A DNA stretch of 64,000 nt from NCBI GenBank assembly GCA_964106645.2, contig OZ067047.1, one strand, 5' to 3'. Below are positions 12,001-21,000 of this stretch, in pieces. Numbering within the stretch: the stretch's first letter is position 1; every line of letters begins with the position of its first letter. Source of the stretch: Podarcis pityusensis. Taxonomy: Eukaryota. The position numbers are program-made.

Positions 12001-15000
12001 AGAGCCATAATATACTATTTATATAAGCTTATGAAGATTTCAAATGAACCAGTATTCATCTTCATTTTCTATTTCTTTTTATCTTTTCTCAGCTATCTAT
12101 TTTTTTAAAGAAACTACCCAGCTCCTTATTAAATCTCATATGCCCAACTGCACAAAAACTTATTTCACACTGCCACCAATTTTTTGACACTGCACAAAAT
12201 GCGTCTGGTTTGACGTTATAACTTAATAACTACTCCAGGGTTTATTCTAAGAGGTTTTATGTTATTCTTGTCACTGGCTCATAGTTCTTACTTTCACATA
12301 ATGTGCTCAGCAAAGATTTGCAAAGCTCAGGGGGAGGGGAAGAAGTCTGAAAATAGTAGGACAGAGTTTGCCAACTTTTTTGACCCATGGGCACATTTGC
12401 CTGCTCCACAGTTGCACATGCACAGCCATGCAAACATGTACAGGCATGTACAAAAGGCTTCCTTCAAGCCTAAGTTCCATTTGGGGAGAAGAGGACAGGA
12501 CCTGGCAGGGACCAAAGAAGGGTTCTGGGGGAGCATGTGCAGTGGTGTGTACCATGGGGGAAGAAAACATCTATTTACTTACTTACTTACTTACTTATTT
12601 AAGAAGAGGCTATTAAAAGTGAGTTAATGACAAAACAACTCATAAACAACAGAGTGCCTGATGCATAGCTTCAGTCTCTTGTCACTCCATTAGAAAATCT
12701 GTAGTCTGCGCTTAACTTCACTATAATAATTTGAGAAACATATTTCCTGCATGTTTTCATTCATTTTCAAATTCTCTCTTCCTGCCCCCATCTACTAAAT
12801 CCTAGTTTAAGAACGCCAAATAAGGCTGTTATTTTTTTTTTTAAAAAAAGTCAGTTCCTTCTAACATTATACAGTAATCTTGAGAAAATGTGTGTATGAA
12901 TCTCAAAAAGAGCTTAATATTCCCCAATTACCTATTTCTCTTAAGTGAAATGGACGAACTGCTTTATTTTTTTACCTGACCTAAATCATTTCTGGGTCGA
13001 GATTTCATGAATTTCAATACATATCACATGGATATATTTCATCCATGGATAATTTCAGTATGCACGATTCAATTAACAGAACATTATTTATTTATTTTGA
13101 AACATTATTTATACACCACTAAAACAGGCACACACAATATGTTTGAACACACTGGTTGCATTCACACAGCCCCAGGCACAAGCAGAGTAAACAGATCAGG
13201 AAGTCTGGCTTCTCTATGTGTCTGTACTTCAGAACACGGTTTGTTGCTGCTTCTTAACAAGCCACAATCAAGAGACAACCTTAAGCCGCGGTTAATTGTT
13301 GATGTGCTGATTGTTTATTCCATTCGCACTAGGGGAAGACTGAAGCAGCAGTGACCTAGCAGCATCCAACAGCATGCTGCTCTTTCACAATAAATCACGA
13401 TAAGCAAGAAAGTCTGGCTTATCATTACAAGCAAACACTATCTTGGTAAAGCTCGTGGCAATTTCTTCCACATAAATATTTACAGAAATAACTAGTTGCC
13501 ATTTTAGATTGTTTATCTTAACCCTGCATCTAGAACAACAATGGTTTTAAAAAAAATAAAAATGAAAGGCACACCTCACACTGGAGAATTCCAGAGTTAT
13601 ATTTATCTGCTATTAATTTTAGTGAATTCTCTTTTTTAAAAAAAATAATAATAATCTTTATTGCTTTTAAAACTTACAAGAAAAGGAAAAAGAAGAAAAT
13701 AGGCGAGAGACAAAGACAAGATAAAGCAGAGAAGAAAAAAGAGAGAGAGAGAGAGAAAAGAAGAAACAATACAATAAACAATGCAAAACACTACCTTAAG
13801 ACACTAAACTAAACAAAACAAAAGAACAACAATTTAAAAACATATACCATACCATTTCATTACTCTATCTTTCATTCCCTTATTTCATCGACCTCCTCTC
13901 ACCTCCCTTTTTGTATTCCACTTCTATTACTTGTTTCAGCAATTCCTTTCCATCTTTCTCTGTTTTTATCATTATGAATATCTTAACATATTTTGTACCT
14001 TATTTTCCATTAATACTGAAATACTTATTTATACCTAACTCCTTATAACATTTCTGCTAAAGCCATAAAGTTTCAATCCAACAATTTTCTAACACTCATT
14101 AAATTTACAATATTTCTATATATAAACTTTAAACTTTCCCAATCTTCTACCACCATCTCTTCTCCTGGTCTCGGATTCTGCCAGTCATTTCCGTCCATTC
14201 CATATAGTTCATCAACCTGGAGATCTTCTGTCCGAGGCTCTTAAATCTTTTCCAAGTCCCTTCTGCAGTTTTTCTTCATATTCTTTGATGCTGAGGGTGC
14301 TGAAGTGCAGGTCTTGGGGGGGCCCCGACCCAACCATGCCCCCATTCCCTCTCGACAGACCAACCAACTCTCCACAGCTAAAACCAGTGTCCATACAATA
14401 TCTCAAATCCTGTTTCAAGGCTCCTCCAGATCCAAAGGACCCCACAACTCCAATCACCTCCTGACCCAGATTCAGGACCCAAAGGTCAGTAAATCTCTGC
14501 ATGAGAGAGTCTATCCAACCTTCCTTCTTCAATCCAAGCAGGGCTCCAATCTTCAAATTCTGACTTTTTCTATATTCATTCATAAAAGGCCTCCACTTAT
14601 AGTCCTCAGTTTGCCTCTGTAAGACTGGGGCTTCCACTTGTGTTAATTTAGGTTTAACAACACCAACATTCTTCTTCGTCTTCTCCCCAGTTTGTCCTGT
14701 CAAGGTAGGTTCCTGTGTCAAATCCTGAACAATTTCTGTATTAATGGTCACTTTTTGTTCCAAATTAATCACTTTTTGTCCCAAGTTCTCAAGTTTGGTA
14801 TTCATAGCGTCCGTCTTCTTGTGGAGCTGTTCCAACGGATAGCTTATCTTACATAATATAGTCACTAAGGCTCCTTCTGTCAACATTCTTAAAGTCCAAG
14901 GTCAGTCTCTATTTCACACAGTTCTTATCTTGCAACTGGAAAAACCCCAGCTCCACTTGTAACAGTTTCAAAAGCTCCCTCTAGAGGGAAACAGTCTCCA

Positions 15001-18000: not shown

Positions 18001-21000
18001 CTCTAGGGGGAAAAACTTCTATTTGTATCCATCTCTCTCCTTTTTTTTTTTTTAAAGCAAATCTAACAACAAAGTTTCCTTTTTCAGATATTTTGTCAAT
18101 ATTTTGTTCCTTTTAGATGCGAAGGGGAACAATGGAATCAATATGTTTCTCTTCTTTTAACTATCTGTCAAAAACGGTTGTCTATAGTCAATGAAATTCC
18201 CGAAGACGTCTGTCCTGACACCCCGCTCCCAGGTTCAGGACGGTGGAGAATTGCTTTTCTTTACTTGTCTTCTGCAAGTTGAATCAGTCCAGAAAAAGTT
18301 CCCCCCTCTTCTCCTGCTTCCAAGGGAGGTTCAGTAATTTTAAATGATGAAAATTGATCCTTTACAACGATTTTCTAAGCTCTAGCTTGCCGTGTCTTTG
18401 CTTCAATCTATTTACAAAAAGCGGAAGGCAGACTTCCTGTTTAGACCTTCCCGCTTCAGTGCCAAATTTAAAAAAATTTCTTATTTCAATTTTCCGTTCT
18501 ACTCACGGACGGTTATTTAAGCTCCAATTGTCCACAGGAAAAAGTCAGCGCTCTCCGGCAACAGCAATGCGGCTTCACTCCGTGAAAGAAGCAGTCGATT
18601 CAAGGCACCGCGCCACTCACCCCACGTCGCTCCAGAACCCCGAAATCGGGTTTCCCCGCGAGTAGGGGGGGCGCAAAGGTGCCGGCTGAATCCCATGTCC
18701 ACAGGCTTCTCCCGCCTGTGGTTTTTGATGGGTCTCCGCCTCGCCGTGGTGGTTCAGACCCTGTTTTCCACGGAGCGGATTCCTCCCGATCGGACGAAAT
18801 CCGCCATTGCCAGAGGCGCCAACCCGGAAGTCATGCAAAGAAACAGTGTGGATGGTTTAGAATCAGGAGTGGTTAAATATCCATTTCAAAAGCAACATTT
18901 TCTATGTGGAAAAATGTGAAGGCCTCTGTTTTTCTTCGCCCAGGCACAAACCAGACAGAAACAGCAGTAGTTTTATCTTCACTGTAATTACTGTGCCAGC
19001 CGTACAAAAGTAAAGTACTTTACTGAAATAAATGTGGAAATAAACTTCGAAAGTGTGAAACCCCATTGCTACTTCTCATGTTATTTATTCAGCAAAACAG
19101 GAGTATTACAGCAAGAAGTGTTGACTGCGCATAACTATCACTGAAAGATGTCAGTCTGTCAAGCTACTCCCACAAACAATCATTATTGCTATCTTCAGAT
19201 TTGTTGAATTCCCATCCCTCTACACCAGGCATGGCCAAACTTGGTCCTCCAGATGCTCTGGGACTACAACTCCCATCATCCCTAGCTAACAGGACCAGTG
19301 GCCAGGGATGATGGGAACTGTAGTCCCAAAACATCTGGAGGGCCAAGTTTGGTCATGCCTGCTCTACACAATCCTGGAGAAGGTCTTCAGATACCCAGCT
19401 CTAAGGGTCATATAGGGGTTCAAAAGTTACATCCAGAACTTTGAATTGTACCTAGAAACAAAAAGGAATCCAATGATTTTTATTTTTAAACTAAGGATGT
19501 GTCTTCTGATTGACCAGCCTTAGTTAATCATCTAGCTCCAGGTTTCCTGAACCAGATGTAGTTTCCAAGGTATGGTGCCCTCTAGGTGTTTTGGATTACT
19601 ACTCTCATCGGCCCCATCCGGCACAGCTGTCTTGATAGGGTTTGATTGAAGTTGCAGTCCAAACATCTGGACAATACCAGATTTGCAAAGGCAGCAGTAC
19701 TCTAACCTAGATGTTATCTGGGCACAAAGAACTGTGACTAGAGAGAAGTAGGAGCTGGTGCACCAGACTCATATAAGAAACAGTAAAAGGTGTTTTCAGC
19801 TACAGATGCCACCTCAACATAAAGAAAATAAGGGCCAGAGCTAACTGCCAAGCTAATCCATTAGAAAGAATAAAACTGCAACCAGAATGGGAGAAAATAA
19901 CACTTCCACCAGCTACCAACAGCACCATCTATTAAATATAATGTGGTCTGTAAGTTAGCTTGTGTACTATCCATCATGTCTAGAAAATACATTGAAATGA
20001 GAGACCACACTTTACTGAAAGATATATAGAAAATTACATTTTCAAGATTACCCACTCTTTATCTACTACCATGTTCAGATTACTTAAGTGAACAATTCTT
20101 TCCTTTCTGCCCATTAAGAAAGATACTGTGTTTTCCTTTTACCTTCTCGAGATCAAAAGCTTATTTTGCAAAGACTCCGCCACCCCATAGGTCAACGACT
20201 TGCATCATATTTTCATGACAAACACTTATGCAAGACAAATTGCAGACAGGCATGAAAAGGCAAAGCAATAAGCTGGAGTTAGTCCAATCTCATGTTAGCT
20301 ACTTTGACTTTAACACAGTACTACGTGCAACAAAACAATTAAGAGAGGGGGGAAAGAAATACAATTTCAGACTTATTAAAAATGCATAAAGTGCCCACTT
20401 GGAACAGTATAAATTAATGTATCTCCTGCCACACCATTAGTTGCAAGGCTAAGAATGATGCTACTCAGCAGGCTAGTGCTTTAATGAAGAAGCACCTGAA
20501 TTCCAGGGAGGAACACCTGTGGTTGGAAATCAGAAAACACTTGCGATCAAAAAGAGAGCTGCTGAGTAATGTGTTTTCTGGATCTCAGTCCCATGTGTTT
20601 CTAAAGAGGGTACATATAATAACACAGTTTGAAATATTCCAGCGTACGAGAGTAGAGTACTAACAGAACAAAGGAAGAGCGCATATACTTTTAGGTATAT
20701 GCAAAGTAAGGTTAGAGTCATTCACTTCAATAAGCAGAGTTACAGGAAAGTATTTATCATGATTAAGGAGGGGAAAGTTATATAGAAGAGGCGCCAACGA
20801 AACATAGCTCAAATGGAAGGGAGACCCAGTATTCTGAGCATGTGCACAAACATATATGCATGCTTTCTTTCTCTGAACAACTAAGTGTAATGTTCCTGAT
20901 TGGTCCATACCATTTGATTGTTGTTTAAGACAAGACTACAGGTAGACCACCTAGCTCATTCAACTTTTTAGAAAATGAATGTAGCACTCACTGGCTTGGA

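What the first reader, a model, noticed from the sequence alone, without database searches (positions are those of the whole stretch)
13632..18832. Pair of ~2.1-kb RT-less L1 derivatives whose single ORF stays open while its protein diverges rapidly
Seen: two complete, collinear, same-strand elements. Copy A has a 17-bp TSD and A tail, so it retrotransposed as a unit. Neither has endonuclease or RT. Each has about 870-925 nt of 5' UTR and one uninterrupted ORF (224 and 210 aa) that starts and stops at homologous positions. By eye the CpG-rich 5' ends are roughly 80-85% identical, but the proteins are only roughly 40% identical. The ORFs differ by a net in-frame 14 codons with no stops, including an apparent 7-residue (one heptad) indel in the coiled-coil region (LGQKVINLEQKV vs FGQAV). 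Established: HAL1 elements are ORF1-only L1 derivatives, and L1 ORF1p coiled coils evolve by heptad indels and adaptive change. Inference: this is a lizard family of non-autonomous L1 parasites with at least two subfamilies, under selection either for translatability itself (ribosome engagement to capture ORF2p in trans, or NMD avoidance) or for a fast-evolving ORF1p-like protein in a host or helper conflict.
[Added by the scan's program, not by the reader: the finding's places include an assembly gap (unread letters, written N; its length is only estimated) at 16217 to 16346. Whether the letters on both sides are continuous or in frame is not known: test that first.]
Basis: partly seen in the sequence, partly recalled or inferred. 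Interest (0 to 1): 0.75.

Follow-up and report, generated by a model that had tools for sequence, protein, structure and literature searches.

The report
Lizard ORF1-only L1-derived retroelement pair
Two neighbouring 2.1-kb retroelements in a lizard genome carry no reverse transcriptase but keep open a shortened copy of the L1 ORF1 protein, making them a reptile counterpart of the mammalian "half-L1" parasites.

Summary
Two minus-strand elements (13632-15753 and about 16667-18832) each have a long CpG-rich leader, one intact ORF (224 and 210 aa), an AATAAA signal and a short A tail. Copy A has a perfect 17-bp target-site duplication; copy B has none that I could show. The N gap (16217-16346) lies in the spacer between the copies and touches neither element.

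The ORFs are truly ORF1-derived. They align collinearly with full-length lizard (Podarcis) ORF1 proteins (hhalign 98.8%, E 7.5e-17). The modelled fold of one such protein matches human L1 ORF1p (Foldseek E 9e-11). The short proteins keep the heptad coiled coil but lack the second half of the RRM and part of the CTD.

The frame is kept by selection. It stayed open in 5 of 20000 neutral simulations, all 4 ORF gap runs are multiples of three, and upstream ATGs are depleted (2 and 3 against about 11-12 expected).

Adaptive protein evolution is not supported: dN/dS is 0.58 and synonymous sites are even more diverged.

Best reading: a lacertid HAL1-like non-autonomous L1 family. It is a new member of a known kind and of moderate interest. 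Genome-wide copy number and Repbase/Dfam status could not be checked.

The parts
13615..13631 (.). Target-site duplication of copy A, copy next to the element's 3' end
   Evidence: 17/17 identical to 15754-15770; 0 of 500 shuffles reach the score
13632..15753 (-). Copy A, complete element (2122 bp): 5' UTR, ORF, 3' UTR, A6 tail
   Evidence: Bounded by the 17-bp repeat; collinear with copy B over its length
13632..14211 (-). Copy A 3' UTR (580 nt, 29% G+C), with the A6 tail at 13632-13637 and AATAAA at 13657-13662
   Evidence: signal 31 nt from the end
14040..14260 (-). Block conserved between the copies, spanning the ORF end and the proximal 3' UTR (copy A side)
   Evidence: 77-78% identity in 100-column windows against 55-65% around it; alignment; no stable RNA fold (z 0.23)
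14212..14886 (-). Copy A ORF, 224 aa: shortened ORF1p (coiled coil, RRM remnant, CTD remnant, conserved C-terminal tail)
14746..14787 (-). Tandem 21-nt (one heptad) duplication in the coiled-coil part of ORF A
   Evidence: Units identical at 17 of 21 bases; the other 7 of 8 aligned family members have a 7-residue gap here
14887..15753 (-). Copy A 5' UTR (867 nt); the first 300 nt (15454-15753) are 59% G+C with CpG o/e 0.81; presumed internal promoter
   Evidence: Only 2 upstream ATG against 11.3 expected; 0 of 2000 shuffles have as few
15754..15770 (.). Target-site duplication of copy A, copy next to the element's 5' end
16217..16346 (.). Assembly gap (130 N) in the spacer between the copies; not part of either element
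16667..18832 (-). Copy B, complete element (about 2166 bp; the 3' boundary is uncertain by about 6 nt); no TSD shown
16667..17274 (-). Copy B 3' UTR (608 nt, 26% G+C), with an A-rich tail at 16667-16677 and AATAAA at 16689-16694
17275..17907 (-). Copy B ORF, 210 aa: shortened ORF1p of the same family
   Evidence: P0001 is 63% identical over 172 aa; P0031 is 69-70% identical
17908..18832 (-). Copy B 5' UTR (925 nt); the first 300 nt (18533-18832) are 61% G+C with CpG o/e 0.97
   Evidence: Only 3 upstream ATG against 12.5 expected; 1 of 2000 shuffles has as few

Best explanation
These are two separate insertions of a non-autonomous, ORF1-only derivative of an L1-type LINE. It is a lizard analogue of mammalian HAL1, and the copies belong to two old sublineages.

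Shown:
- Each copy is a complete unit with the same first base, a CpG-rich leader, one intact ORF, AATAAA and a short A tail. Copy A has a 17-bp TSD.
- The ORF is a shortened ORF1p. It keeps the heptad coiled coil, the first half of the RRM, part of the CTD and a conserved C-terminal tail.
- The reading frame, the heptad pattern, the tail and an ATG-poor leader have been kept by selection.

Inferred:
- The element is transcribed by Pol II from an internal promoter in its 5' UTR.
- The long leader is scanned to the ORF, and the RNA is polyadenylated after AATAAA.
- An L1 ORF2 protein made by an autonomous L1 copies the RNA into new sites by target-primed reverse transcription on the A tail.
- The short protein most likely acts through its coiled coil. 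It would form trimers on its own RNA or join the helper's ORF1p trimers, and so bring the RNA into the helper's particle.
For: Unit structure and TSD.

The flanks and spacer share no similarity, so this is not a tandem duplication.

No RT or EN.

Homology of the ORFs:
- The profile of A plus B finds 11 proteins in 1.84 billion. Six are of the same short type (P0001-4, P0008, P0010; 174-215 aa). Four are longer ORF1p-type proteins or fusions (P0005 E 2.4e-16, P0006 3e-13, P0007 1.7e-9, P0009 2.3e-5). The eleventh, P0011, looks like a gene model that reads through a copy-B-like element.
- Pairwise tblastn against ORF A: P0005 is 42.5% identical over 134 aa (E 1.9e-20). P0012, from Podarcis lilfordi and named by UniRef as an L1 RRM domain protein, gives E 7.6e-15.
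- hhalign of the short family against the full-length family: probability 98.8%, E 7.5e-17, 195 collinear columns.

The full-length family is L1 ORF1p-like:
- AF2 model of P0007: pLDDT 72.7.
- Foldseek ranks 1-11 are all human LINE-1 ORF1p (E 9e-11, TM 0.64-0.70).
- Sequence matches: E 0.0046 and 7.8e-4.

Link to the L1 clade: P0005 joins this ORF1 N-part to a stretch that matches human L1 ORF2p residues 752-882 at E 3.9e-15.

Selection on the ORF:
- 5 of 20000 neutral simulations stay open.
- Gap runs that are multiples of 3: 4 of 4 in the ORF against 6 of 26 in the UTRs.
- Upstream ATG depletion.
- dN/dS 0.58 against a control of 1.00.
- Heptad periodicity in 8 of 9 proteins.
- The C-tail residues R, A, S, D, P and G of ORF A are shared by 7 of 7 members that reach them.

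The class is established: ORF1-present non-autonomous LINEs include HAL1, HeT-A and Ag-Sponge (passages of PMC5786205, PMC5753468 and PMC5322556).
Against: - The short proteins have no direct match to L1 ORF1p: Pfam gives none and PDB sequence searches give none.
- The word-indexed protein search found nothing.
- The AF2 model of ORF A is useless (pLDDT 32).
- The ESM Atlas gives an L1 RRM lead for A (0.91). For B it gives only low-score, unrelated bacterial clusters, with recognition 1765, below the tool's 2300 mark.
- Even the full-length lizard proteins miss Pfam Transposase_22.
- Copy B has no demonstrable TSD.
- The tail is only A6 and is preceded by the same T run in both copies, so it could be templated rather than a shrunken poly(A).
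- Only two copies are in the window.
- The three database clusters whose sizes I saw (P0010, P0031, P0001) have 1 member each.
- Genome-wide copy number is unknown.
- P0005 is an unnamed predicted protein and could be a gene-model artefact.
- The helper, trans-mobilisation and the role of the protein are all inferred.
Confidence: 0.72

Rival explanations
1. The frame is kept open only for translatability. Ribosome transit would help the RNA avoid nonsense-mediated decay or meet nascent ORF2p, and the peptide itself would have no function.
For: - Divergence is equal at the three codon positions: identity 0.63, 0.61 and 0.61.
- The AF2 model has no confident fold.
- ORF B is not recognised as protein-like by the ESM Atlas.
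- Half of the RRM is missing.
- Upstream ATG depletion shows that translation matters.
Against: - dN/dS is 0.58, and only 3 of 500 position-blind stop-free controls are as low.
- The hydrophobic heptad register is kept in 8 of 9 family proteins although sequence identity is about 32%.
- The last residues are nearly fixed across the family.
- The heptad-sized duplication keeps the register.
Confidence: 0.13
2. The ORFs belong to a host gene family derived from ORF1p, as L1TD1 is in mammals. The two loci would then be retrocopies or paralogues of host genes, not members of a mobile family.
For: - There is weak purifying selection and a conserved tail.
- Relatives are annotated as hypothetical or uncharacterised proteins in Podarcis.
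- The three database clusters whose sizes I saw have 1 member each.
- Only two copies are in 64 kb.
- L1TD1 shows that ORF1p can be domesticated (passages of PMC4161310).
Against: - Each locus is an intronless unit with its own leader, signal and tail, and the same first base. Copy A has a perfect TSD.
- Two copies that are 61-77% identical sit side by side in otherwise unrelated sequence.
- Nine distinct proteins, at most 70% identical to the window's two ORFs and 24-40% identical to ORF A, keep the same architecture.
Confidence: 0.08
3. The parent and helper is not L1. It would be another LINE clade whose ORF1 has the same coiled coil, RRM and CTD plan, and the A6 end would be a templated 3' end recognised by that clade's reverse transcriptase.
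For: - The same T-run-then-A6 end occurs in both copies, with a tail of only 6 A.
- Pfam Transposase_22 is not matched by any family member, short or full length.
- The RT fragments elsewhere in the window do not match L1 ORF2p in PDB sequence searches.
- From recall, not from a call: some L2-group elements are reported to carry Transposase_22-like ORF1.
Against: - Foldseek's first 11 hits are human L1 ORF1p.
- P0005 couples this ORF1 type to an L1 ORF2p-like stretch at E 3.9e-15.
- AATAAA lies 28-31 nt from the end.
- A 17-bp TSD is typical of L1-type insertion (the typical size range is recalled).
- The 3'-terminal 300 nt are the least conserved part, at 55-60% identity. That does not fit a specific 3' recognition element.
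Confidence: 0.08
4. The two ORFs are open by chance in decayed repeats.
For: None beyond the small sample of two copies.
Against: - 0 internal stops, against 13-19 in each of the other sense frames.
- 5 of 20000 neutral simulations stay open.
- All 4 ORF gap runs are multiples of 3.
- Homologous proteins of the same length exist in the databases.
Confidence: 0.01

Closest known systems
HAL1 ('half-L1') of mammals
   Same: A non-autonomous L1 derivative that encodes only ORF1, has a poly(A) tail and TSDs, and depends on the RT/EN of full-length L1. This description comes from passages of PMC5322556 and PMC5753468.

Here I find an ORF1-derived ORF only, no ORF2, AATAAA plus an A tail, and a 17-bp TSD on copy A.
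   Different: - The host is a squamate, not a mammal. HAL1 is described as arising several times within mammals.
- The ORF here is a reduced ORF1p of about 200-224 aa. It lacks the N-terminal extension, the second half of the RRM and part of the CTD.
- I could not read Bao and Jurka 2010 (not held). So I cannot say whether HAL1 ORF1p is ever similarly reduced.
HeT-A (Drosophila, Jockey clade) and Ag-Sponge (mosquito, CR1 clade)
   Same: Both are ORF1-present 'bipartite' non-autonomous LINEs. Their protein is thought to multimerise with the protein of the autonomous partner (passage of PMC5786205).
   Different: They belong to other LINE clades and other hosts. HeT-A is telomere-specialised. 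Nothing here points to a chromosomal niche.
Full-length L1 ORF1p (type with coiled coil, RRM and CTD; human structures 2ykp and 2ldy)
   Same: - The lizard full-length relatives share the fold.
- The window's proteins align collinearly to them.
- The window's proteins keep the heptad coiled coil.
   Different: - The window's proteins have three internal deletions and no N-terminal extension.
- A canonical four-stranded RRM cannot form.
- There is no direct sequence match to human ORF1p or to Pfam Transposase_22.
L1TD1 (domesticated ORF1p gene of mammals)
   Same: An ORF1p-derived protein with a preserved coiled coil that may interact with L1 ORF1p (passage of PMC4161310).
   Different: L1TD1 is a single host gene. 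The loci here are retrotransposed units with a TSD, a tail and their own leader.

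Membership tests
HAL1-type ORF1-only non-autonomous L1 derivative | Encodes a protein homologous to L1 ORF1p | tested here: met
   The match is transitive. The ORFs match full-length lizard ORF1p, and that family matches human L1 ORF1p by fold and sequence. Direct matches of the short proteins to human ORF1p or to Pfam were not found.
HAL1-type ORF1-only non-autonomous L1 derivative | Lacks ORF2 (endonuclease and reverse transcriptase) | tested here: met
   - 0 Pfam families on the other stop-free stretches in the region.
- No tblastn match of the L1 ORF2-like part of P0005.
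- No match of any of 31 proteins to the UTRs below E 0.017.
- The elements are only 2.1 kb long.
HAL1-type ORF1-only non-autonomous L1 derivative | Poly(A) tail and target-site duplication | tested here: inconclusive
   - Copy A has a perfect 17-bp TSD but only an A6 tail.
- Copy B has an A-rich tail of 11-12 nt and no significant TSD; 67 of 500 shuffles match its best candidate.
- AATAAA is present in both.
HAL1-type ORF1-only non-autonomous L1 derivative | Dispersed multi-copy family | not testable with these tools
   - The window holds 2 copies, and 7 further distinct proteins are in the databases.
- No eukaryotic genome collection was open.
HAL1-type ORF1-only non-autonomous L1 derivative | Descent from, and dependence on, an autonomous L1 | not testable with these tools
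   The only indirect link is P0005, which couples this ORF1 type to an L1 ORF2p-like stretch.
L1 ORF1p (coiled coil, RRM, CTD) | N-terminal trimeric coiled coil | tested here: met
   - Single-register heptad hydrophobic periodicity: ORF A 0 of 1000 shuffles as good, ORF B 1 of 1000. Eight of 9 family proteins score at 49 or fewer of 1000; P0004 fails at 556 of 1000.
- The region aligns to the coiled-coil helix of the full-length model.
- The trimeric state itself was not tested.
L1 ORF1p (coiled coil, RRM, CTD) | Complete RRM domain | tested here: not met
   In the hhalign alignment, a 40-residue stretch of the full-length protein has no counterpart in the short proteins. In the P0007 model that stretch forms the third strand, second helix and fourth strand.
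L1 ORF1p (coiled coil, RRM, CTD) | Complete C-terminal domain | tested here: not met
   A further 17-residue stretch of the full-length CTD has no counterpart in the short proteins.
L1 ORF1p (coiled coil, RRM, CTD) | Match to Pfam Transposase_22 (PF02994) | tested here: not met
   - No match for ORF A or B at E up to 10.
- No match for P0001-P0011 at E up to 1.
- No match for P0012, P0019, P0028, P0030 or P0031 at E up to 0.1.
- Not among the 25 families listed for the 18 full-length proteins.
- The model therefore also misses relatives that have the ORF1p fold.

The most novel reading that the evidence does not exclude
The short protein is a coiled-coil adaptor. Having lost a working RRM, it would enter the helper's particle by co-trimerising with the helper L1's ORF1p. 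The family would stay compatible by re-acquiring coiled-coil sequence from current helper lineages through recombination.

The hint is:
- The first 95 residues of ORF A score higher against four full-length-type ORF1 proteins (73.9, 51.2, 47.0 and 46.2 bits) than against any short-family member (best 43.9).
- Its remaining residues score highest against short-family members (85.9 bits, against 38.1 for the best full-length protein).

This would make the family a natural record of which ORF1p parts a parasite of L1 needs.
Probability: 0.2. Interest if true: 0.7.

Novelty: new member of a known kind. Interest (0 to 1): 0.42.

Why it matters
ORF1-only L1 parasites are described for mammals. In the open literature that I could search, none is described for squamates. 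The searches were made; one search was too loose to count. Repbase and Dfam could not be consulted.

A lizard family would show that this parasitic strategy arises wherever relaxed, poly(A)-dependent L1s are active. Here the retained protein has been trimmed to a coiled coil, half an RRM and a conserved tail, and it is still under selection. That narrows down which ORF1p functions a non-autonomous element needs. The question becomes testable by comparison of sequences, by expression data and by structure.

Tried and rejected
- Direct recognition of the short proteins failed: Pfam, PDB sequence search with 2- and 9-sequence profiles, the word-indexed protein search, and an AF2 model of ORF A (pLDDT 32; not taken to fold search).
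- ESM Atlas for ORF B gave only low-score, unrelated bacterial clusters. I treated them as chance.
- An RNA-derived head was rejected. There is no Rfam match inside the elements, no tRNA, and no monomer repeats in the leaders.
- A second conserved ORF in the leaders was rejected. Stop-free stretches occur in several frames of the G+C-rich 5' ends, mostly without Met in copy A, and none is shared convincingly.
- An RNA structure in the conserved block at the ORF end and proximal 3' UTR was rejected. The z-scores are 0.23 and 0.16, and the alignment fold is weak, with 3 compensatory pairs among 39 from only two sequences.
- Coding remnants of ORF1p or ORF2p in the UTRs were rejected. None of 31 proteins scored better than E 0.017.
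- A tandem segmental duplication was rejected. The flanks and spacer match nothing but themselves and short dispersed repeats.
- A TSD for copy B was not found.
- Bao and Jurka 2010 is not held.
- timed out without output. A lighter version ran.
That is outside what this report may do.
- The single genome-contig scan was not used, because that collection holds only bacterial and archaeal genomes.

Full report
**1. Gap and coordinates.**
- The window has one N run, 16217-16346.
- Both elements lie on the minus strand: copy A at 13632-15753 and copy B at about 16667-18832.
- The gap sits in the spacer between them, 446 nt from A's outer repeat and 320 nt from B's 3' end. No element or ORF crosses it.
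- Only the relative order, spacing and orientation of the copies depend on the scaffold join.
- The window is not human. The nearest named relatives of its proteins are from Podarcis lizards.

**2. Anatomy.**
- Copy A (2122 bp) is bracketed by a perfect 17-bp direct repeat; 0 of 500 shuffles reach its score.
- For copy B the best flank match is 10 of 11 bases, and 67 of 500 shuffles equal it. No TSD is shown for B.
- The flanks and the spacer match nothing else in the window except short dispersed repeats. So the pair is not a tandem segmental duplication.
- Both copies start at the same base. A has 3 extra G in front. From recall, extra G at the 5' end of full-length L1 insertions is ascribed to the cap.
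- The first 300 nt have 59-61% G+C and CpG o/e of 0.81 and 0.97. The ORFs have CpG o/e of 0.23-0.29.
- The leaders are 867 and 925 nt long, with an in-frame stop 5 and 4 codons before the ATG.
- Each copy has AATAAA 31 or 28 nt from its end, then a T run, then A6. In B the tail reads on as an A-rich 11-12 nt.
- No RT or endonuclease is present.

**3. Divergence between the copies.**
- A plain MAFFT alignment gives 77.5% identity in the 5' UTR, with 79-89% in the first five 100-column windows. The ORF is 61% identical and the 3' UTR 68%.
- One better conserved block (77-78%) runs from the ORF end about 170 nt into the 3' UTR.
- The proteins are 41% identical.
The coding part is indeed the most diverged part.

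**4. Is the frame kept?**
- The ORFs have no internal stop. The other two sense frames have 13-19 stops.
- I mutated ORF A with the observed substitution table. The frame stayed open in 5 of 20000 runs, with 8.3 stops on average.
- In the alignment, which is not codon-aware, all 4 gap runs in the ORF are multiples of three (6, 9, 15 and 21). In the UTRs 6 of 26 are. By my own hypergeometric arithmetic this gives about 0.008.
- The leaders hold 2 and 3 ATG, against 11.3 and 12.5 in dinucleotide shuffles. Only 0 and 1 of 2000 shuffles have as few. The 3' UTRs hold 17 and 20 ATG, against about 11.4-11.8 expected.
- An ATG-poor leader of about 900 nt is what scanning to a translated ORF requires. 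That last point is inference.

**5. Is the protein evolving adaptively?** No evidence for it.
- Identity is the same at the three codon positions: 0.63, 0.61 and 0.61.
- Nei-Gojobori dN/dS is 0.58: dN 0.475, dS 0.82, N-half 0.37, C-half 0.85.
- The bootstrap range is 0.39-0.85, and 6 of 2000 replicates reach 1. A position-blind, stop-free control gives 1.00 (0.68-1.37), with 3 of 500 runs as low as observed.
- The alignment was protein-guided, which lowers dN somewhat, and dS is near saturation.
- dS (0.82) exceeds the Jukes-Cantor distance of the UTRs, which is about 0.27 and 0.42 by my arithmetic from the counts.
- So either the UTRs are constrained or the parts have different histories. A fast protein is not needed to explain the pattern.

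**6. What the protein is.**
- *Direct searches failed*.
- *Profile search.* A profile of A plus B against 1.84 billion representatives found 11 proteins.
  - Six are of the same short type (174-215 aa).
  - Four are longer: P0005, P0006 and P0007, and P0009, which carries a RING/B-box N-terminus.
  - The eleventh (P0011, E 9.1e-4) looks like a gene model that reads through a copy-B-like element.
- *Named relatives.* Relatives of P0007 are Podarcis proteins, one of which UniRef names as an L1 RRM domain protein.
- *Pairwise tblastn against ORF A.* P0005 is 42.5% identical over 134 aa (E 1.9e-20). P0012 gives E 7.6e-15. P0001 is 63% identical to ORF B.
- *Family against family.* The short family (8 sequences) aligns to the full-length family (18 sequences) with hhalign probability 98.8% and E 7.5e-17, over 195 collinear columns.
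- *Fold of the full-length family.*
  - The P0007 model (pLDDT 72.7) has a long helix, an RRM and a C-terminal domain.
  - Foldseek's first 11 PDB hits are all human LINE-1 ORF1p (E 9e-11 to 2.9e-4; target TM 0.45-0.70).
  - Sequence searches agree weakly: 2ykp at E 0.0046 and 2ldy at E 7.8e-4.
  - Pfam Transposase_22 matches none of them.
- *Link to the L1 clade.* P0005 joins this ORF1 N-part to a stretch that matches human L1 ORF2p residues 752-882 at E 3.9e-15. This ties the ORF1 family to the L1 clade, unless P0005 is a gene-model artefact.

**7. What is left of ORF1p.**
- Relative to the full-length lizard proteins, the short ones lack the N-terminal extension and have three internal deletions.
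- One deletion is short and lies in the coiled coil. One of 40 residues removes the second half of the RRM. One of 17 residues lies in the CTD.
- ORF2 is absent altogether.
- The N-terminal 50-55 residues keep a single-register hydrophobic heptad pattern in 8 of 9 family proteins. ORF A scores 0 of 1000 shuffles as good and ORF B 1 of 1000. P0004 fails at 556 of 1000.
- A's extra heptad is a 21-nt tandem duplication that keeps the register.
- Mean pairwise identity among the 9 short proteins is 0.29-0.32 in four regions but 0.58 in the C-terminal tail. Six of ORF A's last nine residues are shared by 7 of 7 members that reach them.
- So there is constraint on pattern and on the tail, and little on residue identity elsewhere.

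**8. A mosaic hint.**
- ORF A's first 95 residues score best against full-length-type proteins: P0005 73.9 bits, P0007 51.2, P0012 47.0 and P0006 46.2. The best short member is ORF B at 43.9 bits.
- Its remainder scores best against short members (P0002 85.9, P0003 73.9). The best full-length protein scores 38.1.
- ORF B scores best against short members in both parts.
- This fits either recombination with a helper lineage or a basal position of A. Two copies cannot tell these apart.

**9. Mechanism.**
- Shown: the retrotransposed unit structure, the ORF1p origin, the loss of ORF2, and selection on the frame, the leader, the heptads and the tail.
- Inferred: an internal Pol II promoter in the CpG-rich 5' end, scanning translation, polyadenylation, and copying in trans by an L1 ORF2p primed on the A tail.
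- Also inferred: the protein acts through its coiled coil, either on its own RNA or within helper ORF1p trimers. That idea is already voiced for ORF1-present non-autonomous LINEs (passage of PMC5786205).
- The sequence at A's insertion site is a pyrimidine run followed by AT on the primed strand. This is loosely compatible with the L1 endonuclease preference as I recall it.

**10. Known relatives and novelty.**
- Kojima groups HAL1, HeT-A and Ag-Sponge as ORF1-present bipartite non-autonomous LINEs (passage).
- The same PMC5322556 passages predict a relaxed L1 system in the green anole.
- My searches found no paper that describes such an element in lizards. The useful searches were (listings only). 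One search was too loose to count.
- PMC5203782 has no occurrence of HAL1 or 'ORF1-only'.
- Bao and Jurka 2010 was not held. Repbase and Dfam were not available, so prior curation cannot be excluded.
- I rate this a new member of a known kind, with an unusually reduced protein.

**11. Limits.**
- There are only two copies, plus seven database proteins without DNA.
- No eukaryotic genome collection was open, so there is no copy number, no ages and no family-wide selection test.
The prokaryotic genome scan was not used.

Noticed in passing
window 19226-19361, 63482-63607, 48260-48378, 2626-2750; partial copy at about 16454-16533: A dispersed, palindromic repeat of about 130 bp. It matches itself on both strands. 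It also resembles the Rfam mir-5408 hairpin, below the gathering score (62.2 bits against 90). One partial copy lies in the spacer between the two elements.
   Followed up: partly
window 16164-16207: A perfect 21-nt tandem repeat of 2.1 copies directly abuts the left edge of the assembly gap. It is a plausible reason for the gap.
   Followed up: no
window 8587-9018 (+), 31764-32075 (-), 32213-32671 (-): Decayed reverse-transcriptase fragments: Pfam RVT_1 at E 6.9e-5, 2.1e-5 and 3.5e-8. The two fragments that I queried, 8587-9018 and 32213-32671, have no PDB sequence match, L1 ORF2p included. The clade was not determined, and no related ORF1 lies beside them.
   Followed up: partly
window 14040-14260 (-) and 17095-17323 (-): The block spanning the ORF end and the first 170 nt or so of the 3' UTR is better conserved between the copies (77-78%) than the ORF body (61%). 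It has no stable predicted RNA fold and no protein match. The cause is unexplained.
   Followed up: yes
database proteins P0009 and P0013 (Podarcis muralis; not in the window): These predicted proteins fuse a RING and B-box (TRIM39-like) N-terminus to the RRM and CTD part of this lizard ORF1p family. They could be an exonised L1 fragment or a gene-model artefact.
   Followed up: no
database protein P0005 (not in the window): A 340-aa predicted protein joins the ORF1p coiled coil and the start of the RRM to a stretch like the human L1 ORF2p region 752-882. It is possibly another kind of internally deleted L1.
   Followed up: partly
alignment A2 (full-length lizard ORF1p family; not in the window): The coiled-coil region of this family gives its best PDB sequence match to trimeric autotransporter adhesin fragments (2wpq, E 1.7e-6). 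The likeness is in repeated heptads rich in N and T. It is probably a shared coiled-coil type and not common descent.
   Followed up: no
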